44,713 bases of DNA from a virus (lineage: Duplodnaviria > Heunggongvirae > Uroviricota > Caudoviricetes). The notes below the pieces were generated by a model. That model was not told the origin of the DNA, did not search any database, and saw only the letters and a list, made by a program, of their open reading frames with translations. The position numbers were made by a program, and so were the translations under genes. Position 1 is the stretch's first letter; each line of letters begins with the position of its first letter. The stretch lies in IMG/VR virus record IMGVR_UViG_2531839450_000015. One strand, given 5' to 3'. This document shows, in pieces, positions 12,466 to 40,187 of the stretch.

Positions 12466-12763
12466 ATCTCATTCCTCCCGATATACCTTCCCCCAGATGC
12501 ATCAGCTCTTCATCCGTGCGTTCAGGGATCACCCTGTCATCCGTAACCAGACTGAAATCATCCGCCGGAATACGTTCACCGGACACCATCTGAACCATCA
12601 GCGACTTCAGTGTGGAAATCTGTGCATCCAGCCAGATATCCCCGAAACTCTGCTTCCGGAAGAAATCCCCCCATTCGCCCAGTTCTGACGCTGACATTTC
12701 TGATAACATCCGCCGCCAGTCTGCCCGCCGGAACTCACGGGCAAGCTGCATCACAAACTGCAT
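12449..12763 (-). CDS. T: Tail assembly chaperone, T segment of the G-T frameshift product
   Basis: 104-aa ORF in the -1 frame relative to G, overlapping the G stop. Standard lambdoid G/GT architecture upstream of the tape measure gene. Confidence 0.7.
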   Translation of the reverse strand: MQFVMQLAREFRRADWRRMLSEMSASELGEWGDFFRKQSFGDIWLDAQISTLKSLMVQMVSGERIPADDFSLVTDDRVIPERTDEELMHLGEGISGGMRFGPDC

Positions 12764-12771
12764 CTCCCGCG

Positions 12772-23743: not shown

Positions 23744-24610
23744 CTAAGCGAGGTTCTGGTTTTCAAATTGTTCCGGACTGAGGCCGCCACACCAACTGTG
23801 CCGCCGCCACCGATTGTAATCACATTCGATATAATTAAACACCGTTGCCCGCATTATTTCCCGGCTGATAAAGTGTTCTCCATGGATACATTCCACTTTC
23901 AGCGAATGAAAGAAGCTTTCCACGCAGGCATTATCGTAGCAGCAACCTTTTGCGCTCATACTTCCACGCAGATTATGCCGTTTCTGTTGCGCCTGATAAT
24001 CTGCTGAACAGTACTGGCCTCCACGGTCCGTGTGAACGATAACGTTCCGGGGCCTCTTACGCCGCCACAGCGCCATCTGCAGGGCATCGCAGGCCAGTTG
24101 CGCCGTCATGCGTGGCGACATTGACCAGCCAATAACGGCACGTGACCACAGGTCAATGACCACTGCCAGATACAGCCAGCCTTCATCTGTACGTAAGTAC
24201 GTGATGTCTCCTGCCCACTTCTGGTTCGGGCCACTGGCGTAAAAATCCTGCTCCAACAGATTTTCTGACACAGGCAGGCCGTGTGCGCGGTAGCTGACCG
24301 GGCTGAACTTCCGGGAGGCCTTTGCCCTCAGTCCCTGACGGCGCAGGCTTGCCGCCACGGTTTTTACGTTAAAGGGGTAACCCTGAGCACGCAGTTCATC
24401 CGTCAGGCGTGGGGCACCGTAACGCTGTTTTGACCGGGTAAAAGCCGCGAGGACAACGCTGTCGCAGTGTTGGCGGAACTGCTGACGCGTGCTTATCCTT
24501 GTCCGCCGCTGACACCACGTATACCAGCCGCTGCGGGCCACCCGGAGCACGCGGCACATTGCTTTGATGCTGAACTCAGCCTGATGTTTTTCAATAAAGA
24601 CATACTTCAT
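23744..24610 (-). CDS. insF: IS3 transposase OrfB (DDE integrase core)
   Basis: 288 aa; [31 protein letters not shown] and [11 protein letters not shown] motifs of IS3-family OrfB. Confidence 0.9.
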
Positions 24611-24915
24611 TTCAGGCGCTTCGCGAAGTATGTCGCGGCCTTTTGGAGGATAGCCAGCTCTTCATCCCGTTCTGCCAGCTGGCGTTTGAGACGTGCAATC
24701 TCGGTAGACATCTCCAGTTCACGTTCAGAAGACGTCTGCTGATTTTGCTGTTTACTGCGCCAGTTGTAGAGCTGTGATTCATACAGGCTGAGTTCACGGG
24801 CTGCGGCAGTAACACCGATGCGTTCAGCAAGCTTCAGGGCTTCACTGCGAAATTCAGGCGAATGCTGTTTACGGGGTTTTTTACTGGTTGATACTGTTTT
24901 TGTCATGTGAGTCAC
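24607..24915 (-). CDS. insE: IS3 transposase OrfA (HTH)
   Basis: [50 protein letters not shown]. Ends at the A-rich CAAAAGG frameshift window overlapping orfB. Confidence 0.9.
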
Positions 24916-27140: not shown

Positions 27141-27522
27141 TGCCGCCTCCTCCACCCCGCAGGCGGGAGAACAGGCCGGACACCAGCGATGCAATATCCT
27201 GCTGGTGGATGAACGAGAGAATCTTCACCGACACCACCGCCACCAGCACCGCACACAGTGCATCCGCCGATGTACCGTCATAACCTGTTTTTGATGCAAT
27301 CCAGGCTGACAGCACATGCGCACCCAGCACGCCAACGATAAACGACACCAGAAAATGCGCTGCCACACGCCAGGCAGATAGTGCCTGCGGCATTGTGGCC
27401 ACAAACAGCGCCCCGGCAAATGCGCCAAACACAATCCCGAAATCCGTTCCGGTAAACAGCCCGAATACCGTCGCCCCGCCGAGCGCCGCAGCCGTGCCGG
27501 AACCGGATAAGGGTTCAGACAT
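27130..27522 (-). CDS. Putative holin
   Basis: 130 aa from ATG at 27522 with upstream AGGAG. Gly/Ala-rich hydrophobic helices and first position in the lysis cassette. Confidence 0.55.
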   Translation of the reverse strand: MSEPLSGSGTAAALGGATVFGLFTGTDFGIVFGAFAGALFVATMPQALSAWRVAAHFLVSFIVGVLGAHVLSAWIASKTGYDGTSADALCAVLVAVVSVKILSFIHQQDIASLVSGLFSRLRGGGGGNVK

Positions 27523-27701
27523 ACTTTTTCTCCTGTAAATAAAAAAGGGCCACTGTCGGCCCGTAAAAAAACAACACCCCGTCAAAGGCACCCGCAGATA
27601 CCTTTTGTGTGGTGTTATCTGATGTGATGTACGCCGGACGTGGCGCGGATATAAAAAAGGCCCGCCGCAGCGAGCCTGTTTTCAATGAGTGCAAAATTCA
27701 A

Positions 27702-28445
27702 TTATTCTTGAGTAACACTTAAACTCATCTCATTGAATGCAGCCATCCTGTAACCTGCCGGTGTAACACCAAAATAACTCCTGAATACGCTGATAAAATA
27801 AGATGTAAAATTATAGCCACACTGAGCAGCGATTCTGTTGATGGCGCAACGAGATTGATTCAACAGCATTGCTGCCATTCTCATTCTCTCTGTAAGCAAC
27901 AACTCACTGAAACAGGTGCCTTCTTCTTTCAGTCTTTTTTTTAACAAACTTTCACTGATACATAACCGCGAAGACACATCTCTCAGAGTCCAGTTTGCTG
28001 CAATGTCCGTACGAAACAATGCACTAAGCCTGTCACTAATATTGCCAATACACGCGGTCAGAAACGACGAAAACATTTTCTCTGATGAGAAAAACGCCAG
28101 ACACGAAAAGGAAAGCATTTCCGCTAAATTGTCCGTATGAATCTTTTCCTCACAAAGATAATCAATCAGGATGCCCATCAATTCTGCCTTGGGAAAACTC
28201 ACGCAAAGATATCGTGGTATTTGCCGGACTAAAACTACATCCTGTTTTTCGTCTCCACACAACAGGTAACGGATAATTGTCGATTCACTGAGACTTATTC
28301 GCCGAAAACATTCCGAAAAGGGCAATAACGATCCAGCTCCCCCCCTGACAAGAAGTGCACTACCACTTTCCAGAGAGAGCTCTTTTCCTTCAAAGAGCAC
28401 AACAAACGGGGAATGAACAAAAACAACAGAACAAGCTTCATTCAT
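27702..28445 (-). CDS. AraC/XylS-family transcriptional regulator (moron)
   Basis: C-terminal AraC-type HTH (WTLRDVSSRLCISESLLKKRLKEEGT...IAAQCGYNFTSYFISVFRSYFGVTPAGY). Low-GC, AT-rich gene. Start may be 28445 or 28505. Confidence 0.8.
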   Translation of the reverse strand: MNEACSVVFVHSPFVVLFEGKELSLESGSALLVRGGAGSLLPFSECFRRISLSESTIIRYLLCGDEKQDVVLVRQIPRYLCVSFPKAELMGILIDYLCEEKIHTDNLAEMLSFSCLAFFSSEKMFSSFLTACIGNISDRLSALFRTDIAANWTLRDVSSRLCISESLLKKRLKEEGTCFSELLLTERMRMAAMLLNQSRCAINRIAAQCGYNFTSYFISVFRSYFGVTPAGYRMAAFNEMSLSVTQE

Positions 28446-28667
28446 ATCAATTGCCCTGACATTACTGGTCACAAGATAAGTATATATCGATTTACAAAAA
28501 TACAAGCCGAAAGACCAGTATTCGCAACCACCAGCGCGTTTAACGTCCTGTACCGTTTTTCAGGCATAAAAAACCCGCTCAGTGGCGGGTTTAAGCTGTT
28601 TGGCGTAGTAACCACTCTTAACAGGATATTCAACTTTTTACGATCGTAAAGCGTTCGGGGAAAATTT

Positions 28668-29156
28668 TTAAAACCGTTCCAGAGTGCATACCATCGCATC
28701 GGCGGGTAGTTTTTCCGTGAAGTCAACCTGACCGTGTTTATCGAAGTGGATCAGTAATGCGCATCCATCATTTTGGGTTGGGGTGTTTTGTGCTGCTGGT
28801 GGTTGTTTTTGGCTGAAATAACAGTCTTCCAGTTTTTCGAACACTTCCCACGCCTGATCGGTTTCCAGCATTTTGGCGTGACGGGCTGCTCCGCGTTCTG
28901 TCCAGAGGATGAGGTGCTTTGTACGCGGTGCAACTAAGTTACTTTGAGTAACCTTGTTCTTAAATTCCCGCAACTCAGCCCCTTCCAATTTGAAGTAGTG
29001 TTTCCCACAAACAAAACGCTCGGCATTGCGTGTATAGTTCACTTTGATGTTATTAGTTTCGGTGCCATAAAGTTGTGCCAAAAGCTCGGTAGTAATGACA
29101 GGGATTTGGTTATGGGTGATCGGGGAAAGAGTTTCAACTGAGATTTGAATAGCCAT
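28668..29156 (-). CDS. ORF6N-domain protein (antirepressor-like family)
   Basis: LLAQLYGTETNNIKVNYTRNAERFVCGKHYFKLEGAELREFK fits the ORF6N consensus pattern (LAxLYGxET...RNxERF...F.L...EL) as I recall it. Confidence 0.55.
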   Translation of the reverse strand: MAIQISVETLSPITHNQIPVITTELLAQLYGTETNNIKVNYTRNAERFVCGKHYFKLEGAELREFKNKVTQSNLVAPRTKHLILWTERGAARHAKMLETDQAWEVFEKLEDCYFSQKQPPAAQNTPTQNDGCALLIHFDKHGQVDFTEKLPADAMVCTLERF

Positions 29157-29315
29157 AGGATGATCCTTTTTCTATGTGAATCATCACCACTGCTGACGCC
29201 AATCAGTATGGTGGTGAACTGTGCAGGGTTGGCGTAACCGGGAAAAAGGAACCGGCGCGGATCGCTCCGCCCCCACACAGCCCACCATTGAGATGTGACA
29301 GTGCAAACGACAATA

Positions 29316-29340
29316 AAAAAGACGCTGGCGCGTCTGTTGT
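29316..29340 (-). terminator. tR'-like intrinsic terminator downstream of Q
   Basis: Minus-strand AGACGC-GCCA-GCGTCT followed by TTTTTTATT, located between the Q stop and the first late gene. Confidence 0.5.
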
Positions 29341-29429
29341 CGCCTTTTTCATCCGGGACGCCAATCCCGACGCCAGATTTTGCTGGCGCGTGAGGAATAT
29401 AGCCCCGGACAATGTGTCTGGTCAAGCTC

Positions 29430-29825
29430 CTACATGATTCGTTCTACGTATCTGTCCATCTCCAGTCGGATATCAAGCATCATCAACATGCCATCAATAA
29501 CCCCTTCCGCTTTCTGCAGGCGCTTGCCAATACAGGTATCCGAACACCCATGCTTTCGTGCCAACCCCATAAAAGTCATTCCACCTACGTAATAATCCAC
29601 CAACAAATCGTGCAAATCCTGATTTTTCTTGTTCAACCGGGCCATACAGCCACAAATTATCATTGCATCATCATCAGAACACTGAGGGCGTGATTTCACT
29701 TTCGGCGGGATTAATCCTTTAAAACCAGCAGCGATTGACGCCCATGACACATCTTCGTGATTGTTCGCAGCCCATGCTCCCCACCGCTCCATAACCTGCT
29801 GAATATCACGCACCATCGTTATCAC
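29430..29825 (-). CDS. Q: Late antiterminator Q (phage-82 / QuuD type)
   Basis: [26 protein letters not shown] and [14 protein letters not shown] match the Q antitermination family of DLP12 QuuD and phage 82. Confidence 0.8.
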
Positions 29826-30177
29826 CTGTAATTTCGTAAATCTTCACGCCCAACCGCCCACCAGGAACAGGCAGTCCGCGCACAATATTGATTTCATCAA
29901 ACTGCTCGTCGTCTATAAGTAGTCCGGCATGCGTCAGCGCATCCAGTGGTGCCTTCAGGATATTGTCCAGGTCGCGGCGGCGCTTATCCGGTGGCTCTGC
30001 AATAATTTTTATTGCCAGCCTTCCGGACAGGTTTAATTTCAGTCGCTGCTGGCGAACAATAAGCGCCACATCACGGCGATAACGCTCACCGGCTTTTGAT
30101 ACAAAATATGTGCTGCCACGACGTCGCCAGTAGGTGTTCACCGTTGGCGGGTAAGGCAAAACAAATTCTATCCCCAT
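29806..30177 (-). CDS. rusA: Holliday junction resolvase RusA
   Basis: [13 protein letters not shown] and [20 protein letters not shown], the RusA catalytic Asp-containing motif. Confidence 0.9.
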
Positions 30178-30189
30178 CAGTAACCTCTT

Positions 30190-31239
30190 TTATCCGAGTA
30201 CGCCTGTTGCAAAGGCGTGATCAAGAAAACGAAAAATTAAATCAACCTGAGAACCATGCTTTTCTTCGAATGCCTGCGGATCCGCATGAAGCTCGTTGTG
30301 ATGCTCCCGACACAGCGGCAACGTAAAAATATCGTGGGCCTTTGTTCCCATCCCTCCCTGACCGTGACCAATCAGGTGATGGGGATCGTCGGCTGGCTTA
30401 CCACAACACGCACACGGCTGTGTCTTCACCCAGCGTGTGTATTTCTCGTTAACCCAGCGGCGACGTTTAGGTCGTTTCATGAAAGATTCCGGAGACTCAG
30501 GATCAACGGCAATGCTGACCACCGTCTTTTCCTGTGGTGGGTTCTGTTGCTGGTGGGCGTGAGGCAACAGCGCAAAATTTTTTGTGCGCTGCTTCAGTAT
30601 GCTGGTGGCTGTCTGTTCTCCCGGTATGATGTCGCTCTCGCGGTAAAGCGAGCGGATTTTCTCCGCCGGTAATCCCAGTGAGCGGCGTAATACAGCCTCC
30701 GGTAGTGCGTCCGCTACCTGATTGCAGACCGCCCACCAGGATAATTCAGCCAGAGATAATTCACGCTCCTGCGTACCGCTTATTGCGTGACCGATGACGT
30801 CAATCATCCATGCTGACAGGTTTTGATGAGCAAGTTGCTCGAGTGATTCGGATGTCTGGTCACGCAGCTGGTTGTCGCAGTGCCAGCACAACACCATTGC
30901 GCCGGTACCATAACGGTGAATGACGGTTTCACTGTGGTGATAATCGCCGTGTGGCCACTGGCAGGATTTAACATGGCGCAGTAACCAGTCAGACAATGCG
31001 CCAGCGCCACCAGCAGCACGAATCACTCGTTCGTCGCTGAAAAATGGCAGTAATGATTTATCCTCCGCCAGCGGCTGGCGAACGGCAGGAACGACCCCGG
31101 ACGGCAGATTACGCATGCTTTTCGGTTCCGGCTCCACCAGTACCCGGGTATTGTGGAATACCGGCATGGATTCACGGCCCGGCTTAACGATCACCAGCCC
31201 GAGTTCCGGTACCAGAACAGGTCGAAGTAATACCCGCAC
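30190..31239 (-). CDS. DUF968-family protein (Qin YdfU-like) with C-terminal His-rich putative nuclease motif
   Basis: 349 aa; CACCGKPADDPHHLIGHGQGGMGTKAHDIFTLPLCREHHNELH. Length and position next to a Rem-like ORF and hok resemble Qin ydfU. Confidence 0.55.
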   Translation of the reverse strand: MRVLLRPVLVPELGLVIVKPGRESMPVFHNTRVLVEPEPKSMRNLPSGVVPAVRQPLAEDKSLLPFFSDERVIRAAGGAGALSDWLLRHVKSCQWPHGDYHHSETVIHRYGTGAMVLCWHCDNQLRDQTSESLEQLAHQNLSAWMIDVIGHAISGTQERELSLAELSWWAVCNQVADALPEAVLRRSLGLPAEKIRSLYRESDIIPGEQTATSILKQRTKNFALLPHAHQQQNPPQEKTVVSIAVDPESPESFMKRPKRRRWVNEKYTRWVKTQPCACCGKPADDPHHLIGHGQGGMGTKAHDIFTLPLCREHHNELHADPQAFEEKHGSQVDLIFRFLDHAFATGVLG

Positions 31240-31240
31240 G

Positions 31241-31630
31241 TTACCTCCAGATGCGTTGCTGGAATGTGCGGGACGGACGCGGTGGGCGTTCGGAGTAAGG
31301 AAGCCTGACGGAGATTATCCAGTGACGGTAGTCGAGGCTAAGGGCTTTTTTAACCTCGTATCCGCGCCTGCGGTAACACTGAATTATCCATTCAGCCTGC
31401 TCTTCAGTGCATGGTGGATGCTGGAACCAGTCCGATTTGAATGCATGAAAACGCCGTCCGCACCTGCTGGCAAAGACGGCAGAATCATCAGAATTGTGTA
31501 ATTTGGTATCGTGCGCCATCGGTTGTCTCTGCTGGCGCAGCAGGTGCCAGTTGTTCAGGCTGGCGTATAAAGTATAAATAAACTGGTTCCAGTGTAAAGC
31601 CCCTACATTAATGGAATAAAAGTCAAACAA
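31241..31630 (-). CDS. Hypothetical protein (Rem-like position); true start may be the internal ATG at 31519
   Basis: Track ORF starts with TTG. An internal ATG gives a 92-aa product. Lies between the ydfU-like gene and hok, as rem does in Qin. Confidence 0.35.
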   Translation of the reverse strand: MFDFYSINVGALHWNQFIYTLYASLNNWHLLRQQRQPMAHDTKLHNSDDSAVFASRCGRRFHAFKSDWFQHPPCTEEQAEWIIQCYRRRGYEVKKALSLDYRHWIISVRLPYSERPPRPSRTFQQRIWR

Positions 31631-31887
31631 CAGATTGCTGGGATAAACACAACGCTTATTATTAAAAGCGATTAGATAAATTAAATTTTAATGTTATGCA
31701 ATTTTACCAGATCACCATAACATCTCGTTTGAAACCACCGAAACAACAACCATATCAATATTGATTATGTTAAAGTGAGTAAATATGGAAAACAACAAAT
31801 CTGCACATTACGCTCCTTTTTTATCTGTAATACTTTTTGTTTTATGCTGTGTGTGGGCATTATTTTTATAAAAATATTTACAGATAA

Positions 31888-31910
31888 AATAAACCCGCCG
31901 AAGCGGGTTA
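31888..31910 (-). terminator. Intrinsic terminator of the hok transcript
   Basis: Minus-strand AACCCGC-TTCG-GCGGGTT followed by TATTTTATCTG. Confidence 0.55.
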
Positions 31911-31977
31911 AGTGCGGGTGCATTGAGGATGCCTGACACATCAGAGGTGGCGAGGGATTTCTCCCTCGCCGGGTCTC

Positions 31978-32133
31978 TTACTCCTCAGGTTCGTAAACTG
32001 TGAAGACAGCGACCTCCGTCTGGCCGGTTCGGATTCGTACCTCGCAGAGGTCTTTCCTCGTTACCAGTGCCGTCACTATGACGGTTAAACAGATGACGAT
32101 CAGGGCGATTAACATCGCCTTTTGCTGCTTCAT
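31978..32133 (-). CDS. hok: Hok/Gef-family type I toxin
   Basis: MKQQKAMLIALIVICLTVIVTALVTRKDLCEVRIRTGQTEVAVFTVYEPEE is essentially the HokD/RelF sequence as I recall it. AAGGAG SD upstream. An overlapping upstream in-frame extension (to 32190) corresponds to a mok-like frame. Confidence 0.85.
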   Translation of the reverse strand: MKQQKAMLIALIVICLTVIVTALVTRKDLCEVRIRTGQTEVAVFTVYEPEE

Positions 32134-32542
32134 AGCCTGCTTCTCCTTGCCTTTCGGCACGTAAGAGGCTAACCTAGATTTGCCGTTCATAGATTGAGCC
32201 TCAGATTAATGTTAAGCGTCTTGCAGGACGCATAATGTTAACTGGGGCTTTTCTCTATCTGCCTTTGGTGTTCATGCTTGAGGCAGATAGCCTCAAGCAC
32301 CCGCAGCAATTTTACTTAACTCCCCTTTTCCCACAAATCGTTTTTATCCCTATTGGTAATGTTCTCCCGATGTGGGATTCCCACATTGGAACGAATTCAA
32401 TCAGTTAAAGACTCATCAGAATCTCACCTTTCTAAGTGCCCACAGGTGAGGCATTGCAATAAAAATAGCAAACGTGTATAAAAGGAGGTAATGCATGTTT
32501 TTCCAGTCTTATCAATCCATTACTGAGAGTTAAGGGGGCGCC

Positions 32543-33337
32543 GTGGATCGGTGCGGTAATTATTTACTTAAAGATGGTCGCAGTTTAGGACAAGGGAGTT
32601 TTGGCGAAGTATTTAAGGTTGATGTCTATAACTTAACCCAGACCCACATGACCACATATGCTCGCAAATACTTTTCACCTTGCCCGGACTTTGACAAGAC
32701 CGCTATAAAAGAGTTGACTGATTTAAGACAGCGTTTTTTAGTTGAGATCAAAACACAATGCACTCTCAATAGAATAAACTATGATTCAATAGCGCCAATA
32801 GTTTTATTTAATACAAATGGTGATAAACCTTATTTTGTTATGGAATTGGCAGAGTGTAATTTATATGAAGCCATCCGCAATGGTATGAATTACGCGGAGA
32901 GGAAGTCTGCTGTTACTCAGATTTTAAAAGGAATTATCACCATACATGAAAACAACTATATACATCGTGATTTAAAACCAGGAAACATACTTTATTATGC
33001 CGATGGAAAGTATAAAATATCTGATTTTGGTCTAGTAAAAGACAGAGATACCTTACGGGCCGAAATCAAAACAAAATTTAAGCCTAATCACATGGGCACA
33101 GATGGATATCGAGCGCCCGAAATACATGATAGCGGTCTTTTTTCTTTTCAAAGCGACATATTTGCAGCAGGTAAAATTATCACTGATATATATCCCACAG
33201 AAAGAAGTGAAAAATTAAAAAGATTGATTGCAAAATGTTGCGCACATTGGCCTGAAGAACGATATCAAAGCACACGGGAGTTACTGGAAGATTTTTTAAA
33301 AGTGACGGGGGAGGTAAATCATGAAGAACATAATTGA
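32543..33337 (+). CDS. Hanks-type (eukaryotic-like) Ser/Thr protein kinase
   Basis: Complete kinase signature set: Gly loop GQGSFGEV, lysine in YARK, catalytic loop HRDLKPGNIL, DFG (ISDFGLV), APE (GYRAPE). GTG start in the track; an in-frame SD-led ATG lies at 32495 but is followed by TAA. Confidence 0.85.
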   Translation: MDRCGNYLLKDGRSLGQGSFGEVFKVDVYNLTQTHMTTYARKYFSPCPDFDKTAIKELTDLRQRFLVEIKTQCTLNRINYDSIAPIVLFNTNGDKPYFVMELAECNLYEAIRNGMNYAERKSAVTQILKGIITIHENNYIHRDLKPGNILYYADGKYKISDFGLVKDRDTLRAEIKTKFKPNHMGTDGYRAPEIHDSGLFSFQSDIFAAGKIITDIYPTERSEKLKRLIAKCCAHWPEERYQSTRELLEDFLKVTGEVNHEEHN

Positions 33338-34036
33338 AATGGCATGTTTTAGCCTAAAACAACCCCAAAAAAAGAAAATGAAGACTTTTATTTACCGCCA
33401 TCTTTTGATAGCGATTTTAACATTGTCTTTGCAGTAGCTGATGGGGTTGGTTCCTCTGAACATTCAATGCTTGCATCTCATGCAGCCATTCGTGGCATTA
33501 GACACACGCTAGGCACTTCCTTTTTCTCAATTGAAAGTGCATTTCATTCAGCTAAAAAAGAAATTGACAATTTAGATATTAGCACTGCCACAACCTTAAC
33601 AATTGTTCAGATCAAAAAAAATGAAGTGTTAATTGGTCATTCCGGTGATTGCCGAGTATACTTCAATAAAAACAATAAACTAAATCAGTTAACCACTGAT
33701 CAAACGAGATATCAAGAACTCCTTGATTCTGGTGAACATAAATTACGTAATTTAAGAAATCATAAAGAACGGCTATCTTCAGTCCTAACGAATGCTTTAT
33801 CAAATACAACGGATTTGAATTTTGAGTTAATGTCTTTTCCGATTAGCCAGCTAATTTATAATGGCTATCTTCAACTCTATGCAATGACTGATGGTGCCTA
33901 TAAGCATTGGGATGTCAGACCAAGGTTTTCTGAGAAGACAATGCTCTCACCAACAGCTTTTGCGAGTAGTTTAAGAAAAAGGATTGAGAAAAACATAATG
34001 GATGATTACACCTTTATAGGCGTAAAAGTAACCTAA
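33321..34036 (+). CDS. PP2C-family Ser/Thr phosphatase; start and body are in different frames (requires -1 shift at 33368..33374, or is a frameshift pseudogene)
   Basis: Body frame shows the PP2C motifs KKENED, FAVADGVGS, GHSGDCRVYF, AMTDGAYK and DDYTFIGV. That frame has no start codon upstream of the conserved motifs. The SD-led ATG at 33321 is in the 0 frame and meets the body frame at A_AAA_AAG. Confidence 0.6.
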
Positions 34037-34672
34037 TTTTAGATATCCAAGATATTTACTCTAATTTAACCATAGTATTCCCAACCTCTTTTTATTGGGG
34101 GTTGGGTTCATTAAAGTCACCATTTTCTATTTCTTTCCCGTTAGAGGATATATTATTTCCAGATAAAGAAAGCAACTTCTTATGCAACTTCATATCACGC
34201 CATGCTTCCACCGCGGTAACTCTACATAGTCCATTAACAGTTCATGCCATTCTTCAAAACTGGCGTTATATTTAGTTGAAGCAAAATCAGCCATTTTATT
34301 CTTCCTCTTCGTCTTTTATTTCGTGATATGAGTAATTGCAGTAGTTAAAGAAAATATCTTTTGCTTCGTCATGTATTTCATCAGGCGTCGCATCATCATC
34401 CACTTCGAATTCATCCTCGAAATCTCCACCGGCTATTCCCGTTTCAATAATTATTTTGAACTTTCGCATTTAACTACCGCCCTGCCGGACAGCCTCCTGA
34501 TGTTCTGAGGGTGCCCCCCCTCCGGTTAAGGATTAAATTTTTAACAGTGCTAAATTTAATTATTCAGTTCTTGATTTTGTCGCCCTGCGTATCCGCGCTT
34601 TCGCGTTACGCTCAATCTGAATTAGCTTTTCTATATTTTTCCGCCTTTCCTGTTCCTCCTGGAGCAATAACC

Positions 34673-34858
34673 TTACATCATCTGCCAGTCTGGTTTCTCT
34701 TTTCGCCACAGAGAGCATCCAGTCAAATGGCTCCACAACTGCACCGCAGATTTTACAGCGGACCTGACGCTCTTTTTCGTCAACCCGGACAGAGGCGTGA
34801 TGACAATATGGTCTTTCCGATGGCTCATAAAGAAAATTAACCTGATTACGAGGGTCAT
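34673..34858 (-). CDS. Small hypothetical protein (nin-region-like)
   Basis: 61-aa ORF whose ATG overlaps the stop of an upstream 37-codon GTG-initiated ORF (ATGA coupling). Confidence 0.3.
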   Translation of the reverse strand: MTLVIRLIFFMSHRKDHIVITPLSGLTKKSVRSAVKSAVQLWSHLTGCSLWRKEKPDWQMM

Positions 34859-34973
34859 CCTCTTTTATCGGAAATAAAACGATATTGCTTAACTAATCCT
34901 CTGGTTTTATTTCCATGCTCCTCTCCTTTGATGCGAATGCCAGCGGCAATTGAAGCCTGATAGCTAATTTCAC

Positions 34974-35396
34974 TCACAGTACCGCCTCCTGAAAATTACC
35001 CTGATAGAAAGCCAGTACACGCTGCATAGCTTCGCTCTTCCGGCACTCGCGACAGATTATATTCAGGCGCCTGTCGTAGCGGCGTATTTCTCCGTCTGGT
35101 AATGACCAGATAAGGTCCGGATCAACCGCAGATGGTTTCTTCGGCTTTGCCCTTGAGAGCTTTTTACGGGCATTTTGCCAGTCCTTACGCGCCTGTTCAG
35201 ACGGGAATAACCCGTAACCAGAATTGTATACATCGCCACTGGCAACCAGCTCTCTGGCCAGAACGCTCATCAGATATCTTGTTGCCCCAGTTTTAGCTTC
35301 CAGTTGTCGTAACGTCTCGCGCCCACTCTGGCGTACGAGTTCAACAACCTGCCCTTTAATTTTTTCCCGCTCTTCTTGTGTAAAAACTTTTGCCAC
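34974..35396 (-). CDS. Hypothetical protein downstream of the replication initiator (P-position gene)
   Basis: 140 aa, GTG start preceded by CAGGAGGG. The same CCTCCTGAAAATTACC upstream element recurs before the next small ORF. Confidence 0.45.
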   Translation of the reverse strand: MAKVFTQEEREKIKGQVVELVRQSGRETLRQLEAKTGATRYLMSVLARELVASGDVYNSGYGLFPSEQARKDWQNARKKLSRAKPKKPSAVDPDLIWSLPDGEIRRYDRRLNIICRECRKSEAMQRVLAFYQGNFQEAVL

Positions 35397-35436
35397 AAGC
35401 CCTCCTGAAAATTACCTCATGACCAGAAATTAACAC

Positions 35437-36513
35437 TTACCCCCTGAAGCCCGGCGGAATTTCGTTATCCGGTTCAGAAATATGATTCACACAACGCTGG
35501 TTGTTCGTGCCGCTTACCGGGAGCAACCAGGGGTTCTCAAAATTCCGGTCCGGTCCAAAAAACGTCGTCGCTCGCTGAACAAATTCCGTTCCCGTTTTCC
35601 CGGTAGCCGCCAAGTATCTTGCGTAACGCCTCACGCCATCCAGCATGGCCTCTGGTGGCACCCCCTCGCGTAATCTGGCCTTCCAGGCACTGAAAGCGGA
35701 TTTCTTCGGGTTTGCTCCGGCACGCAACGGGTACTCCCGCCAGACCTGTTCGAACACATCCGGATAATCCACTCGTCCCACAGACTGCCCGGTGTTTTCC
35801 GGGACTACCCGATCGGCTTCCCGCTGAATGGCGGAATCGGCTTCGGGCTGCTGCAGTTGGTGTGATTGCTCCGGCCTTGCGGTCATCACCTGCTGCACAG
35901 CGCCCGAATCGGCTTTCAGCGCATACGCTGAATCGGCTTCCGGTGTCGTGCCTGCTGGCTGACCAAGATTGACGGTCTGAACATCCCCTGCCTGGTTCGT
36001 GGCGTTTTTTACGCCATGGACCATAGTGTTTTGATCTTCTTGATCTGTATCTTTATCTGTATCTTTATCTGTCGTGACTCGTCGTGACATGTGCGTGACA
36101 TTTCGTGACGCGCCGTGACAATCGCCATTTTGTTCCCGCTTTCTTTCCCTCTCTCGCTGCGCCCTCTTACGCTCTGCAGGAGATTTTGCGGTTTGCGAAA
36201 TATTGCCGTTGTCCTCTTTAAGCACCTGGCGTTTTTCCCATCCAGTGATTAAATCACCATCAAGTACCCGCCCCTGCATCGTCTGCAAAATTGAATCAAT
36301 TACCTCTTCTGTCACGTCGAGCGCACTTGCCAAATCTTCTGTCGTGACATCAATGTGACCTCGCGTGACATTTCGTGACGCGCTCACCAGGAGGTGGATA
36401 TACACTGCCATCACTGTTGCAATTGGCTGCCCTGACACCCTGGCAATTGTTCGCCACTTAGGGTCATTTGGCATGTCATGCCATAATCTGAGCCAGGCGT
36501 TAGCCATACTCAC
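35437..36513 (-). CDS. Putative replication initiation protein (replisome organiser / O-like) carrying the origin iterons
   Basis: 358 aa in the O position downstream of the cro-like and cII-like genes. N-terminal W..L..DMPNDPKW...YIHLL pattern resembles phage replisome-organiser N-domains. Two iteron clusters lie inside the ORF. Confidence 0.5.
   Translation of the reverse strand: MSMANAWLRLWHDMPNDPKWRTIARVSGQPIATVMAVYIHLLVSASRNVTRGHIDVTTEDLASALDVTEEVIDSILQTMQGRVLDGDLITGWEKRQVLKEDNGNISQTAKSPAERKRAQRERERKREQNGDCHGASRNVTHMSRRVTTDKDTDKDTDQEDQNTMVHGVKNATNQAGDVQTVNLGQPAGTTPEADSAYALKADSGAVQQVMTARPEQSHQLQQPEADSAIQREADRVVPENTGQSVGRVDYPDVFEQVWREYPLRAGANPKKSAFSAWKARLREGVPPEAMLDGVRRYARYLAATGKTGTEFVQRATTFFGPDRNFENPWLLPVSGTNNQRCVNHISEPDNEIPPGFRG
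36043..36120 (-). repeat. Putative ori: five CGTGAC iterons at 10 to 11 bp spacing, preceded by a 12-bp AT-rich tandem repeat
   Basis: CGTGAC at 36073, 36083, 36094, 36104 and 36114. ATCTGTATCTTT repeated about 2.5 times at 36043..36071. Confidence 0.6.
36337..36382 (-). repeat. Second iteron cluster (four CGTGAC/TGTGAC repeats)
   Basis: Repeats at 36343, 36354, 36364 and 36374. A 21-bp block GCGTGACATTTCGTGACGCGC is shared with the first cluster. Confidence 0.55.
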
Positions 36514-36578
36514 CTCTTTTGATACCGAATCTTTTTACTCACAAATTGCCGGAAGTGATCCGGTATGAATATTGCGAG

Positions 36579-37004
36579 TCAATGCACAGCCACAATATTT
36601 CCTGCAGGGCCACCACGATTCATCTGGTTGAAACCAGCGATCGCCACTGCGACAAAATCATCAGCGTCTCTCACCAGTCGTTCCCGCGTCTCCACTAGTT
36701 CCCGAAAATAGGCTGAGCTATGACTGCGCATTCGGGCCACCAGCAGAGGTGGCATTGCTTTTTCGATAGCTGGTAACAACGCCTGAATTTTTTTAACCGC
36801 ATCAGGGGTGTCTTTCTCCACCCAGCGGAAAATTTTCTGAGTATTGCGAGCCAGGGCTTCCGGATGGCTGTCGTCATACAGTTCCGGGAACGTCATTCCC
36901 AGCTCGAAATACGCTTTGGTAATTTTCGCAGCCGGTACTTTTTCGCCGTCCGGATGCGCCCAGGCATTCATCGCCATGCGGATGTGTTCATGCTTGATTT
37001 TCAT
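36579..37004 (-). CDS. YdaT-like protein (cII-position regulator of Rac-type switches)
   Basis: 141 aa directly downstream of, and overlapping, the cro-like gene, mirroring ydaS-ydaT of Rac. Assignment is by position and size. Confidence 0.5.
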   Translation of the reverse strand: MKIKHEHIRMAMNAWAHPDGEKVPAAKITKAYFELGMTFPELYDDSHPEALARNTQKIFRWVEKDTPDAVKKIQALLPAIEKAMPPLLVARMRSHSSAYFRELVETRERLVRDADDFVAVAIAGFNQMNRGGPAGNIVAVH

Positions 37005-37255
37005 GAATCAACTCCCATCAGCTTTTTCGTAGTAGTTTTATTCCTGCCAATAGTTAAAATTGCATCGGCAGAAAATAATCCGTTTGATGCAAGAGCGATT
37101 TTTTCAGCGTAATTTGTTTCGCCGGTATATTCTGTGCGAGGCAATTTTCCGTTATCCATCCATTTATAGATTGCTCTTTGGCTGACACCACAAACGTCGG
37201 CCACAACAGCAACGCGAACAGTTTTGATTACATCTTCAAGTGTTTTCTGGTTCAT
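37001..37255 (-). CDS. Cro-like HTH regulator (YdaS-like)
   Basis: Start refined to ATG at 37255 (MNQKTLEDVIKTVRVAVVADVCGVSQRAIYKWMDNGKLP), an HTH motif. Divergent from the repressor gene. Confidence 0.65.
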   Translation of the reverse strand: MNQKTLEDVIKTVRVAVVADVCGVSQRAIYKWMDNGKLPRTEYTGETNYAEKIALASNGLFSADAILTIGRNKTTTKKLMGVDS

Positions 37256-37334
37256 ATCACCCTCACAATGTGAACTTTGAGTACATGCTATAACAGAACT
37301 GACAGTACATTCAAGAGCGAATATCATTGAACTT
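37256..37334. promoter_or_regulatory. Divergent promoter/operator region of the immunity switch
   Basis: 79-bp AT-rich spacer between divergent regulators. Repeated AGTACAT and TGAACTT motifs. Confidence 0.45.
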
Positions 37335-37754
37335 ATGGTTCATGAAGATAAAGCGCGTAAAGAGTTCGCCAGTAGGCTTGCGCTAGCCTGTGAAAACGCT
37401 GGTTATGAACAACATGGAAGGCAGGCAGAAATTGCCCGTCGAATGAAATTAACACCAAAAGCGGTTAGCAAATGGTTTAATGGCGAAACAATTCCTCGCC
37501 GGGAGAAATTAAGGGAATTAGCAACACTAATAGGAACAACACCAACCTATCTTTTGGGAGAGGATACAGAAGAAAGTGGACAGGTACGTTTCTATCAAGA
37601 GTTAAATCCAAGACAAAAAATCATCATTGACCTTCTGGACGAGCTCCCTGACAGTGAGACAGATGAACTTTTAAAAACTCTTGAAGAGAAAAAACAGAAG
37701 TACAATGCAATTTACGAAGAGTTAGCACGAAAGAAAAAACAAAAAGCCTCTTAA
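37335..37754 (+). CDS. Prophage repressor, XRE/CI-like HTH (RacR-like)
   Basis: HTH (QAEIARRMKLTPKAVSKWFNGETIP) at the N-terminus. Divergent from the cro-like gene. Confidence 0.75.
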   Translation: MVHEDKARKEFASRLALACENAGYEQHGRQAEIARRMKLTPKAVSKWFNGETIPRREKLRELATLIGTTPTYLLGEDTEESGQVRFYQELNPRQKIIIDLLDELPDSETDELLKTLEEKKQKYNAIYEELARKKKQKAS

Positions 37755-38049
37755 ACCAGCATAAATCCGGTAGCGCCTTCCTCCGGGTTTGTGCTTCACT
37801 TTATCCCATCTCATTTTTTTTACACACAAAATGTACTAAAAGTACTTTACAACAATGAACGCAAAGTACATTATATACCTGCCACCCACCCCGCCCCAAA
37901 GAATGCAGGGCAATACTTCGAGTTACCAGGCAGTGGTCAGGGGTTAAGTAGCCAGCCCGAGGCGTAAGAACATGACGGCAGGGTTCAACTTTAACTATGC
38001 AGCAGGTTTTTGTTCCGCTACCCCGGCGTTAAGGGGAAATGAGGTCAAC

Positions 38050-38202
38050 ATGGATACTATCGATCTTGGCAACAGCGAATCTCTGGTATGTGGCGTGTTT
38101 CCCAACCAGGACGGTACGTTCACCGCGATGACGTATACCAAAAGCAAAACGTTTAAAACCGAAGCTAGCGCGCGTCGCTGGTTATCCAGAAATACTGACT
38201 GA
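38050..38202 (+). CDS. Small hypothetical protein downstream of the repressor (YdaF-like position)
   Basis: 50 aa from ATG at 38050 with GAGG SD; same strand as the repressor. Confidence 0.4.
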   Translation: MDTIDLGNSESLVCGVFPNQDGTFTAMTYTKSKTFKTEASARRWLSRNTD

Positions 38203-38588
38203 TGAGGTTAACGATGGAATTTAAAGATTTACCAACACCTTTCCAGGAAATGGCAGCGAATATAGTTCGTTCTCAATTGGCGACTCTTGACCTGAGTACC
38301 GTAGAAAAAGAAACCATAGATAATATATCCGGTAACGTGCGCCGTGCCTTTATCGGGTTGTACGAAGAGAAGCAGCACTCTGATAAGCATGATTCCTCTG
38401 AAAAATACTTCCTGGAATTAATGGATATCATTAACAAGGGGTTTGGTTTGTTGATGGAAAAGAAAGGGATTCGAATAGAACCCCTTAAAAACCATTTTAC
38501 TGAGTGCAACATTAATTCCTGTGATTTAAAGCATCCCACTTCAGATGGGAAAGTTGAAGCCAACTATAAAATATCAATTAATCATTAA
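38202..38588 (+). CDS. Hypothetical protein co-oriented with the repressor
   Basis: 128-aa ORF whose ATG overlaps the stop of the preceding ORF (TGATG). An alternative ATG at 38214 has a GAGG SD. Confidence 0.45.
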   Translation: MRLTMEFKDLPTPFQEMAANIVRSQLATLDLSTVEKETIDNISGNVRRAFIGLYEEKQHSDKHDSSEKYFLELMDIINKGFGLLMEKKGIRIEPLKNHFTECNINSCDLKHPTSDGKVEANYKISINH

Positions 38589-38666
38589 GTTCTCCACGGG
38601 TGAGGTGGAGAACATGCGCCGGACACGGATAAATCTCCGGCATGCTCTTTAACATTCTGGATATTC

Positions 38667-39113
38667 CTAACCACAAAGAAATCGCATCAATTTAGATTTT
38701 GTGGGCAGCTTCTCTTGTTGTTCGATGGAAACGCCTATTTTGATCTGTGTTTTTAAGATCGCAATATCTTTAAGTGATGACCAAATATGATCATCCGTTT
38801 TTTCCAGAATTTTTAACTGCATTTTCAATTCAGAATCAGAATATTTTTCTGCATCATCAAAAAGCTGCAAATATTCTGCGGATTTTCTCATGGCGTTACC
38901 TGACTTTTGTCCGAATCCATAAATCGTTTGGACGGTTGCGATCACAACAATAAAAACGCCAGAAATTTCCGGAATGAATCCGCCAATGACAGATGAACCG
39001 AGGATAATACTCACCACTGAGAGAAGTTTATCGAGACGACCAGTCGCTACAGAAAATAGTTGCTCAAGAAAATAGCCATATAAAATTCTGTCAAGAATAT
39101 CATCCCGGTCCAT
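38667..39113 (-). CDS. Two-TM membrane protein in the sieB position (candidate superinfection exclusion protein)
   Basis: 148 aa with central hydrophobic helices (LLSVVSIILGSSVIGGFIPEISGVFIVVIATVQTIYGF). Convergent with the repressor operon, between repressor and early-left operon as sieB is in Rac. Confidence 0.45.
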   Translation of the reverse strand: MDRDDILDRILYGYFLEQLFSVATGRLDKLLSVVSIILGSSVIGGFIPEISGVFIVVIATVQTIYGFGQKSGNAMRKSAEYLQLFDDAEKYSDSELKMQLKILEKTDDHIWSSLKDIAILKTQIKIGVSIEQQEKLPTKSKLMRFLCG

Positions 39114-39578
39114 ACATCATCACCTGCTTGTTTGGTTGTTGCTGTTCCCCCTCTCCTCCGAAGGAGCTGGAGATGGTTTTGGTCGAATGTTTTTCTCTGG
39201 TATGTGATCCCAGACTGTTTTATGTGTCGAATTGCCACCACCTGCTTGTGCTCTTTGCTCTGTCATATGATTTCCTTGGATCGTTGGGGATATCCAGATT
39301 ATACAGATTTCTTGTCGTTGGGGAATGACAGGAACCACCTCGCCTGACGTGGTTAAAAGCAGGCACACAACACGAAAGCGCACGGCGAAGTCATTTCTCC
39401 CTCTGTTGCGTGTCGCCGGTATCTTCGACCGTGCGCTTCCGGTTGTGGCACTCCGCGAAATGGCGCGGCGGTAAGTATGGCGGGGTTATCCTTACCCCCA
39501 CTGGTAGCACCGGGTTGTCAGGTTGACCATACGCCTGAGTGACAACCCCGCCACAACATCTCCATGTTGAGGCTTGTG

Positions 39579-39619
39579 TGAGACCTTTGGCGGCATCAGT
39601 TTAATTGCTGGCTGATGTC
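39579..39619 (+). terminator. Intrinsic terminator ahead of the early-left promoter region
   Basis: GGCGGCATCAG..CTGATGTCCGCC stem followed by CTTTTT. Confidence 0.5.
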
Positions 39620-39633
39620 CGCCCTTTTTAAAG

Positions 39634-39794
39634 TGAATTTTGTGATGCGGTGAATGCGGCTAAGCGCACGCGGAACAGTTAAAAAGCGATTAGTTCCCCC
39701 GTATCGGGTGTTTATGGGTTTCCCTGTATCCGGCGTTAATTGTTAACTGGTTAACGTCACCTGGAGGCACCAGGCACCGCATCACAAAATTCAT
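39634..39794. repeat. Perfect 19-bp inverted repeat pair (TGAATTTTGTGATGCGGTG / CACCGCATCACAAAATTCA) flanking 123 bp
   Basis: Exact reverse-complement copies at 39634..39652 and 39776..39794, immediately upstream of the first early-left gene. Confidence 0.6.
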
Positions 39795-39810
39795 TGTTGA
39801 GGACGCGATA

Positions 39811-39993
39811 ATGGAAACGTTATTACCAAACGTTAATACGTCTGAAGGTTGTTTTGAAATTGGTGTCAGAATCAGTAACCCTGTATTTACTGAAGATGCC
39901 ATTAACAAGAGAAAACACGAACGGGAGCTATTAAATCAAATATGCATTGTTTCAATGCTGGCCCGTTTACGCCTGATGCAAAAAGGACGCTGA
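39811..39993 (+). CDS. Small hypothetical early protein
   Basis: 60-aa ORF with GAGGA SD 7 nt upstream. Confidence 0.35.
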   Translation: METLLPNVNTSEGCFEIGVRISNPVFTEDAINKRKHERELLNQICIVSMLARLRLMQKGR

Positions 39994-39995
39994 CA

Positions 39996-40187
39996 ATGAA
40001 TACAGCATTTGCACTCGTTCTGACAGTTTTTCTTAATACAGGCGAACCAGTCGATCTTGTTATTGGTATACATGACTCAATGAAAGAATGCATGGCTGCC
40101 GCAGCGGAACAGAAAATTCCCGGCAACTGTTATCCGGTTGATAAAGTTATTCGCATGGACAATAACGAAATCCCGGCAGGTCTTTAA
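39996..40187 (+). CDS. Small hypothetical early protein with N-terminal hydrophobic segment
   Basis: 63 aa from ATG at 39996 with AGGA SD (MNTAFALVLTVFLNTGEPV...). Confidence 0.35.
   Translation: MNTAFALVLTVFLNTGEPVDLVIGIHDSMKECMAAAAEQKIPGNCYPVDKVIRMDNNEIPAGL

What the first reader, a model, noticed from the sequence alone, without database searches (positions are those of the whole stretch)
33321..33480. PP2C gene needs a -1 shift at a dnaX-type A_AAA_AAG heptamer to join its SD-led start to its catalytic body
An ATG at 33321 with an ideal SD (GGGGGAGG, 7-nt spacer) opens an 18-codon frame (MKNIIEMACFSLKQPQKK). At 33368..33374 this frame contains A_AAA_AAG, the heptamer used for programmed -1 frameshifting in dnaX and IS elements. 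The -1 frame then reads ENEDFYL...FAVADGVGS, the canonical PP2C N-terminal motifs, and stays open to 34036. The body frame has no ATG, GTG or TTG between its upstream stop (TAG at 33350) and the conserved motifs. So this is either programmed recoding that sets the phosphatase:kinase ratio, or a homopolymer-tract frameshift mutation that inactivates or phase-varies the phosphatase and leaves the kinase unopposed.
Basis: seen in the sequence. Interest (0 to 1): 0.75.

Follow-up and report, generated by a model that had tools for sequence, protein, structure and literature searches.

The report
One-base deletion splits prophage phosphatase gene
The phosphatase gene appears to need a ribosomal frameshift only because this genome has seven A's where almost every other carrier has eight and a single unbroken gene, so this is an ordinary homopolymer frameshift (a real mutation or a sequencing miscall), not programmed recoding.

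Summary
An SD-led ATG (33321) opens a frame that meets A_AAA_AAG at 33368-33374, and the -1 frame carries the whole PP2C catalytic body to 34036 with no start codon of its own. The interpretation as dnaX-type programmed recoding is not supported. Of 33 complete E. coli genomes with this locus, 30 have A8 and one continuous 238-codon ORF, including a lineage only 91% identical. The intact protein is on at least 1000 public contigs, against about a dozen A7 contigs. Scandinavium and Buttiauxella relatives encode the same N-terminus in one frame with the heptamer destroyed (CCC GAA/GAG AAA AAT GAA). Phage homologues have no A-run. Neither dnaX stimulator is present: no upstream SD-like element, and downstream folding z = 0.17. 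A7 sits on at least five SNP backgrounds, each with an A8 twin that is identical or one SNP away, so the base was lost or miscalled repeatedly. The three complete A7 genomes are nanopore-only assemblies, and some A7 contigs carry many homopolymer errors. The window's own assembly (ADUR01000032.1) is clean at 77 of 78 other testable runs. Real deletion versus isolated miscall remains unresolved, roughly 55:40. Interest is low.

The parts
32543..33337 (+). Hanks-type Ser/Thr protein kinase gene (264 aa), intact; its 3' end overlaps the phosphatase start by 17 nt
   Evidence: Pfam Pkinase 1.4e-31. RefSeq annotates the same CDS, WP_000373318.1, in relatives. HRD and DFG motifs are visible in the translation.
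33307..33314 (+). Shine-Dalgarno GGGGGAGG, 6 nt upstream of the phosphatase ATG
   Evidence: Read directly.
33321..33437 (+). Frame-0 ORF as it stands in this genome: the true phosphatase start plus 17 authentic codons, then 21 out-of-frame codons and TAG (38-aa product)
   Evidence: This 38-aa peptide is called as a gene on 2 public contigs. In A8 genomes the same ATG starts the 717-nt CDS.
33367..33373 (+). A7 run: a one-base-short version of the A8 tract found in intact alleles, and the site of the frameshift
   Evidence: Alignment with O103:H2 12009 and AREA_497 (A8) and ETEC1730 (A7). 30 of 33 complete genomes have A8. Tract lengths measured in all fetched loci.
33368..33374 (+). A_AAA_AAG heptamer in frame 0, created incidentally by the A8 to A7 contraction; a possible site of low-level spontaneous -1 slippage
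   Evidence: Absent in relatives from other genera. No stimulators. Bare motifs give about 0.1-0.5% frameshifting in E. coli reporters (PMC4066793).
33374..34036 (+). PP2C (PPM) phosphatase body in the -1 frame, carrying all catalytic motifs (ENED, ADGVGS, GHSGDCR, MTDGA, DDYT)
   Evidence: Pfam PP2C_2. Matches solved PstP and tPphA-type phosphatases. 81-85% identical continuous ORFs in Scandinavium and Buttiauxella.
33422..33424 (+). ATT that PGAP uses as the start of a truncated 204-aa CDS in A7 genomes; no SD upstream; the product lacks the ENED motif
   Evidence: ETEC1730 CDS 2523-3137 of L001 maps to window 33422. The same 204-aa product is called on the window's source contig.
33467..34036 (+). 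First canonical-start ORF in the body frame (189 aa); lacks the first two PP2C motifs; this is what gene callers report for A7 alleles
   Evidence: All six fetched contigs that carry this product have A7.
33614..33621 (+). Second A8 run in the same gene, intact here; used as an internal control for homopolymer instability or miscalling

Best explanation
The phosphatase gene normally has one continuous reading frame. It starts at the SD-led ATG, which overlaps the kinase stop (translational coupling), and contains an A8 run at codons 16-18 (CAA AAA AAA GAA). In this genome the run is A7, a one-base contraction of the kind produced by replication slippage in homopolymers, so the start and first 17 codons are out of frame with the catalytic body. 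Shown: A8 with a single ORF is the ancestral and overwhelmingly common state, and A7 is derived and recurrent. Inferred: in this strain the deletion is real. Standard translation then yields a 38-aa peptide and essentially no active PP2C, because any internally initiated product (ATT 33422 or ATG 33467) lacks the first metal-binding motifs. The contraction happens to leave A_AAA_AAG in frame. Spontaneous, unstimulated -1 slippage there, or RNA polymerase slippage on the A-run, could therefore restore a trace (order 0.1-1%) of protein identical to wild type. That is an accident of the lesion, not an evolved signal. My estimate is about 0.55 that the deletion is real in the strain. My confidence that the site is not programmed recoding, whether the deletion is real or miscalled, is about 0.95.
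For: A8 and a continuous 717-nt CDS in 30 of 33 complete E. coli genomes, including four that are only about 91% identical. The intact 238-aa protein is on at least 1000 contigs; the truncated forms are on 5-7 and 3 contigs. In Scandinavium and Buttiauxella the N-terminus MNNIIEMSCFSSKQPEKNENEDFY is conserved in one frame, with the site reading CCC GAA/GAG AAA AAT GAA. Phage Flotzy and phiES15 homologues are single ORFs with no A-run. A7 lies on at least five SNP backgrounds, each with an A8 twin that is identical or one SNP away. No SD-like element upstream; the first 30 nt downstream are unstructured; the 80-nt fold has z = 0.17. For a real deletion rather than a miscall: the window's source assembly shows no indels over 22 kb against two complete genomes, all 36 runs of 6 or more bases there have matching lengths, and in the second half only this run disagrees with all non-nanopore references. 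The second A8 run in the same gene is called correctly.
Against: Whether the deletion is real in this strain cannot be established without reads. The three complete A7 genomes are nanopore R9.4.1-only assemblies. Several A7 contigs show other homopolymer errors. Other A7 carriers are early-2010s drafts of unknown platform. No A7 is seen in the roughly 27 complete genomes outside the one project confirmed as nanopore-only (the platforms of those genomes were not checked). If the phosphatase is an antitoxin to the kinase, as in KKP (PMC11341870), a true null with an intact kinase might be expected to be costly.
Confidence: 0.55

Rival explanations
1. Sequencing or assembly miscall: the strain really has A8 and an intact phosphatase gene, and the consensus under-called the homopolymer by one base.
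For: All three complete A7 genomes (ETEC_1730, 1717, 1718) come from one nanopore R9.4.1-only project with no short-read polishing. Contigs from SRR12298848 (six homopolymer indels in 2.2 kb, tract 1 = A9, tract 2 = A7), SRR094143 (several runs shortened, including both A8 tracts) and ERR10498365 (two) show that this region is miscalled in public data. A7 alleles are otherwise identical, or one SNP away, from A8 alleles on several backgrounds, as random technical errors would be. The source is an early-2010s draft (ADUR01); from my own knowledge that era was dominated by pyrosequencing, but the platform was not verified.
Against: The window's assembly is clean: zero indels in 22 kb against two complete genomes, and 77 of 78 other testable runs of 6 or more bases, including five 8-mers, agree with at least one reference. 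ETEC_1703, from the same nanopore pipeline and differing from ETEC_1730 by one SNP in this region, was called A8. Several A7 contigs have no other indel.
Confidence: 0.38
2. Contingency (phase-variable) switch: the A8 tract is maintained as a hypermutable on/off switch for the phosphatase, tuning an otherwise unopposed prophage kinase. The A7 OFF state would be leaky because it creates A_AAA_AAG.
For: The tract lies in the 5' coding region. A7 recurs on at least five backgrounds. A8 is kept in both E. coli lineages, 99% and 91% identical. Tract-1 A7 is seen more often than A7 at the equal-length tract 2 in clean contigs, roughly 6:1. A PP2C acts as antitoxin to prophage kinases in KKP (PMC11341870).
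Against: OFF alleles are about 1% or less of occurrences, and many are plausibly technical. A8 is short for a high-rate switch in a mismatch-repair-proficient E. coli (my own knowledge). The tract is interrupted in relatives from other genera (GAG AAA AAT). A9 was seen only in an error-ridden contig. The 6:1 asymmetry is not significant (one-sided binomial about 0.06) and comes from different detection routes.
Confidence: 0.05
3. Programmed -1 ribosomal frameshifting of the dnaX/IS type, evolved to set the phosphatase:kinase ratio.
For: A perfect A_AAA_AAG lies in frame 0. A strong SD and ATG serve only frame 0. The body frame lacks a start codon. The trans-frame product would be a complete PP2C.
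Against: The two-frame arrangement is absent from 30 of 33 complete genomes and from at least 1000 contigs. The heptamer is not conserved in other genera or in phage homologues. No 5' SD-like or 3' structural stimulator exists. The frame-0 product is a 38-aa peptide with no independent conservation. The trans-frame product equals the ordinary A8 product exactly, which is the signature of a deletion.
Confidence: 0.01
4. The body is expressed by non-canonical or internal initiation (ATT 33422 as PGAP annotates, or ATG 33467) and yields a functional shorter phosphatase.
For: PGAP calls a 204-aa CDS from ATT in A7 genomes. ATG 33467 opens a 189-aa ORF.
Against: No SD precedes either codon. The Pfam domain starts at residue 16. 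The 204-aa form lacks the conserved ENED motif, and the 189-aa form also lacks ADGVGS; both motifs are conserved down to the 32-35% identical phage homologues and form the PPM metal site (established PPM knowledge).
Confidence: 0.01

Closest known systems
Homopolymer frameshift alleles with low-level compensatory frameshifting ('savior/problem indels', e.g. the G7 run of herpesvirus thymidine kinase; Atkins et al. 2016, PMC5009743)
   Same: A one-base indel in a coding mononucleotide run breaks the frame. The run itself is slippery, so a small fraction of product with the wild-type sequence can still be made.
   Different: No evidence here that the indel is selected or that the residual product matters. 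The lesion may not even be real in the strain.
E. coli dnaX programmed -1 frameshift (A_AAA_AAG)
   Same: Identical heptamer in the zero frame, decoded by the same tRNA-Lys.
   Different: dnaX has an upstream SD-like stimulator and a downstream stem-loop, is conserved, and its shift product is the shorter protein. Here both stimulators are absent, the arrangement is not conserved, and the shift would be needed to make the only functional product.
IS3/IS911-family orfA-orfB programmed frameshifting
   Same: An A-rich heptamer joins an upstream short ORF to a downstream catalytic ORF that has no start codon. A real example, an IS3-family element, lies in this same window at about 23744-24906.
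   Different: IS elements conserve the two-ORF layout and a downstream structure across copies. The PP2C gene is a single ORF in nearly all copies.
KKP kinase-kinase-phosphatase prophage module (Guo et al. 2024, PMC11341870)
   Same: A prophage-borne Hanks-type kinase paired with a PF13672 PP2C phosphatase.
   Different: KKP has two kinases with CSD and FHA domains and a phosphatase-first gene order. Here there is one bare 264-aa kinase followed by the phosphatase. No toxicity or defence data exist for this pair.
Slipped-strand phase-variable (contingency) genes
   Same: A homopolymer early in the coding sequence, with length differences among near-identical strains.
   Different: The tract is short (A8), the OFF state is rare (about 1% or less), part of the variation is demonstrably technical, and the tract is not maintained outside E. 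coli.

Membership tests
Programmed -1 ribosomal frameshift site (dnaX/IS type) | Slippery heptamer X_XXY_YYZ in the zero frame | tested here: met
   A_AAA_AAG at 33368-33374 in the frame of ATG 33321. AAAAAAG occurs 18 times in the window against 10.9 expected.
Programmed -1 ribosomal frameshift site (dnaX/IS type) | Stimulatory elements: SD-like sequence about 10 nt upstream and/or a stable stem-loop or pseudoknot 5-9 nt downstream | tested here: not met
   No GGAG/AGGA/GGGG in 33340-33367. The first 30 nt downstream have a predicted dG of 0.0. The 80-nt fold is -12.9 kcal/mol against a shuffle mean of -13.4, z = 0.17.
Programmed -1 ribosomal frameshift site (dnaX/IS type) | Heptamer and two-frame gene layout conserved among homologues | tested here: not met
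   30 of 33 complete E. coli genomes have A8 and one ORF. Scandinavium and Buttiauxella have one ORF with GAA/GAG AAA AAT. Flotzy and phiES15 have one ORF with no A-run.
Programmed -1 ribosomal frameshift site (dnaX/IS type) | Trans-frame protein detected at a defined ratio | not testable with these tools
   Needs a reporter assay or mass spectrometry for a peptide spanning QPQKKENEDFY. That peptide is identical to the A8 product, so the strain's genotype must be known first.
PPM/PP2C phosphatase (Pfam PF13672 PP2C_2) | Domain match above the curated threshold and conserved metal-binding motifs | tested here: met
   Joined protein scores 41.5 bits against a cut-off of 24, residues 16-129. Matches PstP (1txo, 2cm1) and tPphA-type structures (5d2u, 2j82) at 3e-5 to 8e-5. 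ENED, ADGVGS, GDCR, TDGA and DDY are visible and conserved in homologues. This holds only for the joined reading; the ORFs as they stand lack the N-terminal motifs.
Hanks-type Ser/Thr protein kinase (PF00069) | Kinase domain with catalytic HRD and DFG motifs | tested here: met
   Pkinase 1.4e-31. IHRDLKPGN and SDFG are present in the translation.
KKP tripartite kinase-kinase-phosphatase toxin-antitoxin/defence module | Two adjacent kinases (one fused to CSD, one with FHA) plus a PP2C phosphatase | tested here: not met
   Only one kinase gene, 264 aa, with kinase-domain hits only. The flanking genes are hokD and DUF7167. The definition is from PMC11341870.
PD-T4-6 / Stk2 / mad6 anti-phage kinases (PADLOC) | Full-length match to the system's model, and a defence phenotype | tested here: inconclusive
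   Strong but kinase-domain-only matches (mad6 1e-37, profile positions 54-246 of 659; PD-T4-6 1e-32, 16-202 of 327; Stk2 3e-25). The PP2C has no PADLOC hit. The phenotype is not testable here.
Slipped-strand phase-variable contingency locus | Repeat tract whose length varies at high frequency among clonal relatives, with both ON and OFF states common | tested here: not met
   Length varies (A7, A8, one A9), but OFF is about 1% or less of contigs and partly technical. The tract is interrupted in other genera.

The most novel reading that the evidence does not exclude
The first A8 run of the phosphatase gene is a low-rate contingency tract. Contraction to A7 switches the antitoxin-like PP2C of a two-gene prophage kinase/phosphatase module almost off, and the A_AAA_AAG it creates lets a trace of wild-type protein through, giving a 'dimmed' rather than null state that changes the firing threshold of a defence kinase. 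The evidence does not exclude this: A7 recurs on at least five backgrounds, appears more often than at the equal-length second tract, and the source assembly is otherwise clean.
Probability: 0.05. Interest if true: 0.55.

Novelty: already known. Interest (0 to 1): 0.1.

Why it matters
As found, it matters little biologically. It is a single-base homopolymer lesion, or a miscall, in an accessory prophage gene, and RefSeq already annotates the intact form in most genomes and a truncated form in the A7 genomes. It does serve as a caution. A one-base contraction of an A8G run in the right frame creates a textbook A_AAA_AAG 'recoding site' whose trans-frame product looks perfect, because it is simply the wild-type protein. 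Sequence-only scans for recoding will flag such lesions, and comparing the tract length in homologues settles the question quickly. If the deletion is real, this strain carries an intact prophage Ser/Thr kinase with a nearly silent partner phosphatase. That would be a natural genotype for testing whether the pair behaves as a KKP-like toxin/antitoxin defence module.

Tried and rejected
- Nucleotide search of the phage collection found no match. A protein search found only distant homologues, Flotzy and phiES15.
I repeated it with the body read from the window.
- My ORF-fusion scan of all homopolymers used a gain threshold that missed the PP2C site itself. Its nine hits look like chance or shadow frames, because the real genes there are intact in the annotated relatives. 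I replaced it with direct run-length comparison against references.
- Literature searches for the ETEC strain names, DEC11C, and the ADUR and AJVR accessions found no sequencing-platform information. Only the ETEC project could be traced, through its paper and supplement.
- I considered a relationship of the kinase to the 933W Stk exclusion kinase. No Stx-phage hits appeared at E <= 1e-5, so I dropped it.
- I looked for the canonical lambda G_GGA_AAG at the gpG/gpT junction. It is absent; GGAAAAG is present instead. I did not pursue this.
- I considered internal initiation at ATT 33422 or ATG 33467 and rejected it: there is no SD and the catalytic motifs would be lost.
- I did not check the second copies of the locus in strains SJ7 and FWSEC0003.
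- Structure prediction and the large protein homology searches were not used, because the DNA-level comparison was already decisive.

Full report
**1. Observation**

The sequence is as described.
- GGGGGAGG (33307-33314) lies 6 nt before ATG 33321.
- That frame reads MKNIIEMACFSLKQPQKK, with CAA AAA AAG placing A_AAA_AAG at 33368-33374. The A-run is A7, 33367-33373.
- The frame continues for 38 codons to TAG 33435-33437, not 18.
- The -1 frame is open from TAG 33350 to TAA 34034-34036 and reads ENEDFYLPPSFDSDFNIVFAVADGVGS.
- The -1 frame has no ATG/GTG/TTG before ATG 33467.
- The joined 238-aa protein matches Pfam PP2C_2 (41.5 bits, cut-off 24) starting at residue 16.
- The upstream ORF 32543-33337 is a Hanks-type kinase (Pkinase 1.4e-31), and its last 17 nt overlap the phosphatase start.
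- The heptamer alone is not special: AAAAAAG occurs 18 times in the window against about 11 expected.

**2. The same locus elsewhere**

Thirty-three complete E. coli genomes carry the locus.
- A 100-nt probe with A8 matched 26 genomes perfectly.
- It matched four genomes of a roughly 91%-identical lineage with one substitution and no gap.
- Only ETEC1730, ETEC1717 and ETEC1718 showed a one-base gap. A direct alignment confirmed this.

In the A8 genomes, RefSeq annotates one 717-nt CDS that starts at the SD-led ATG and overlaps the kinase. In the A7 genomes, PGAP falls back to a truncated 204-aa CDS starting at ATT, which is window 33422.

In the 15-billion-protein collection:

| Product | Contigs |
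|---|---|
| Intact 238-aa protein | at least 1000 (counting cap) |
| 189-aa truncated product | 5-7 |
| 204-aa truncated product | 3 |

Every fetched contig of the truncated forms that spans the tract has A7.

**3. More distant relatives**

*Scandinavium* (two species) and *Buttiauxella* encode proteins 81-85% identical in one continuous ORF. The N-terminus is conserved in a single frame (MNNIIEMSCFSSKQPEKNENEDFY). The site reads CCC GAA AAA AAT GAA or CCC GAG AAA AAT GAA, so A_AAA_AAG is absent and no shift is needed. Phage Flotzy and Cronobacter phage phiES15 (32-35% identity) keep the kinase-then-PP2C overlapping layout, with a single phosphatase ORF and no A-run. The two-frame layout is therefore derived and rare. 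The 'trans-frame' product is simply the wild-type protein.

**4. Frameshift signals**

dnaX-type sites combine the heptamer with an upstream SD-like element and a downstream hairpin.
- No SD-like motif occurs in 33340-33367.
- The first 30 nt downstream are predicted to be unstructured.
- The 80-nt downstream fold is no better than shuffled sequence (z = 0.17).
- Sharma et al. 2014 (PMC4066793) report a no-stimulator background of 0.055% and motif-to-background ratios of 2.1-10. That gives about 0.1-0.5% for bare heptamers in E. coli.
- Higher values are reported under strong overexpression (PMC1851650).

If the A7 allele is real, it is therefore expected to be slightly leaky. This is the situation Atkins et al. 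2016 describe as an indel plus low-level compensatory frameshifting (PMC5009743). It is not an evolved ratio-setting device.

**5. One event or many**

SNP haplotypes over about 1.56 kb show A7 on at least five backgrounds, each with an A8 twin that is identical or differs by one SNP.

| Background | A7 carriers | A8 twin |
|---|---|---|
| A | window | HCP5S3_I2 (one SNP away) |
| A' (33626 T) | ETEC1730 | ETEC1703 (one SNP away) |
| B | DEC11C, SRR063738, SRR096454 | O103 12009, O157 YB14-1 (identical) |
| C | SRR34878339, ERR10498365 | 23CRST014 (identical) |
| Private SNP variants | AJVR, DRR275247 | none fetched |

The base was lost, or miscalled, repeatedly. This again argues against a conserved recoding allele.

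**6. Real deletion or artefact**

Evidence for an artefact:
- ETEC_1730, 1717 and 1718 belong to PRJNA917806. They were assembled from nanopore R9.4.1 reads only (Bonito, Trycycler, medaka) (PMC10151945).
- The contig from SRR12298848 has six homopolymer indels in 2.2 kb, with tract 1 = A9 and tract 2 = A7.
- The contig from SRR094143 has several runs shortened, including both A8 tracts.
- The contig from ERR10498365 has two homopolymer deletions.

Evidence for a real deletion:
- The window is 100% identical over 12.6 kb to ADUR01000032.1 of GCA_000188855.2, so that contig is almost certainly its source.
- Window 1-22000 aligns to two complete genomes with no indels, and all 36 runs of 6 or more bases match in length.
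- In 22-44.7 kb, 42 of 45 runs were testable. Only the PP2C tract disagrees with every non-nanopore reference.
- Several A7 contigs have no other indel.
- ETEC_1703, from the same nanopore pipeline, was called A8.

I could not find the sequencing platform of the source assembly. I put the split at roughly 55% real and 40% miscall.

**7. Internal control**

Intact alleles have a second A8 run in the same gene, at 33614-33621.
- The product expected from a deletion in tract 2 alone (103 aa) is not in the collection.
- Tract-2 A7 appears only in one partial contig and two error-ridden contigs.
- Tract-1 A7 therefore looks more frequent, about 6:1. The numbers are small and the detection routes differ (one-sided p about 0.06), so I record it as unexplained and not as evidence of selection.

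**8. Context and consequence**

The pair is a roughly 35% GC cassette in a roughly 50% GC lambda-like prophage, transcribed against its neighbours. It sits in a slot between *hokD* and the DUF7167/DUF977 genes that holds other cargo in related prophages. The kinase matches the kinase domains of the anti-phage models mad6, PD-T4-6 and Stk2.

The closest characterised analogue is KKP, in which a PF13672 PP2C is the antitoxin to toxic prophage kinases (PMC11341870). This locus fails the KKP definition because it has a single bare kinase. If the A7 allele is real, the kinase would be largely unopposed. No phenotype can be inferred here.

**9. Verdict**

What is present is an ordinary one-base contraction of a coding A8 run, real or technical. 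Novelty: already known kind. Interest: about 0.1. The most novel reading not excluded is a low-rate 'dimmer' contingency tract for an antitoxin-like phosphatase (probability about 0.05).

Noticed in passing
window 32543-34036 (+), with flanks 31978-32133 (hokD) and 34296-34469 (DUF7167): The kinase-PP2C pair is a roughly 35% GC cassette in a roughly 50% GC lambda-like prophage, transcribed against its neighbours. The slot between hokD and DUF7167/DUF977 holds different cargo in related prophages (EC11: two hypothetical genes; VG12A2: an IS110 element and others). The same overlapping kinase-then-PP2C pair occurs in phage Flotzy and Cronobacter phage phiES15. It is a candidate two-gene defence or toxin-antitoxin-like module that, as far as I could find, has not been characterised.
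   Followed up: partly
window about 12763-12790, minus strand (gpG 12772-13161 / gpT 12449-12763): Tail assembly chaperone G/T junction. The G frame ends ...CCG GAA AAG TCC TGA, and the -1 frame is open from before the stop into the separately annotated T gene. This is the classical lambda G/GT programmed-frameshift position, but the canonical G_GGA_AAG is replaced by GGAAAAG.
   Followed up: partly
window about 23744-24906, minus strand: IS3-family insertion sequence. Its transposase is annotated 'programmed frameshift' (joined CDS) at the homologous position in strains EC11 and VG12A2. It is a genuine recoding site in the same window.
   Followed up: no
window 33614-33621: A second A8 run inside the same phosphatase gene. 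Shortened versions are much rarer in clean public contigs than at the first tract (about 1 against 6 backgrounds). The difference is not significant and remains unexplained.
   Followed up: partly
L027 (SRR12298848), L025 (SRR094143), L012 (ERR10498365): Public run-level assemblies of this locus with multiple homopolymer indels: six in 2.2 kb in L027, including tract 1 = A9. Truncated-protein entries derived from such contigs, and possibly WP_244428430.1, may be technical artefacts.
   Followed up: yes
window 34514-34520 (C7) and 37814-37821 (T8): Runs that are length-polymorphic among close relatives (C6/C7 and larger differences; T7 in HCP5S3_I2), in non-coding or hypothetical-gene sequence. 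At least some of this variation may be assembly noise in the references.
   Followed up: no
window 27422-40036: This stretch is 100% identical (12,615 of 12,615 bases) to ADUR01000032.1 (assembly GCA_000188855.2, 425,728-bp contig), which is almost certainly the source of the window. No complete RefSeq E. coli genome holds the whole prophage mosaic: the best coverage of 20000-44713 is 77%, while 1-22000 is 99.3-99.8% identical in six genomes.
   Followed up: yes
strains SJ7 (NZ_CP044315.1) and FWSEC0003 (NZ_CP031916.1): These two complete genomes carry two copies of the kinase-PP2C locus. The tract length in the second copies was not examined.
   Followed up: no
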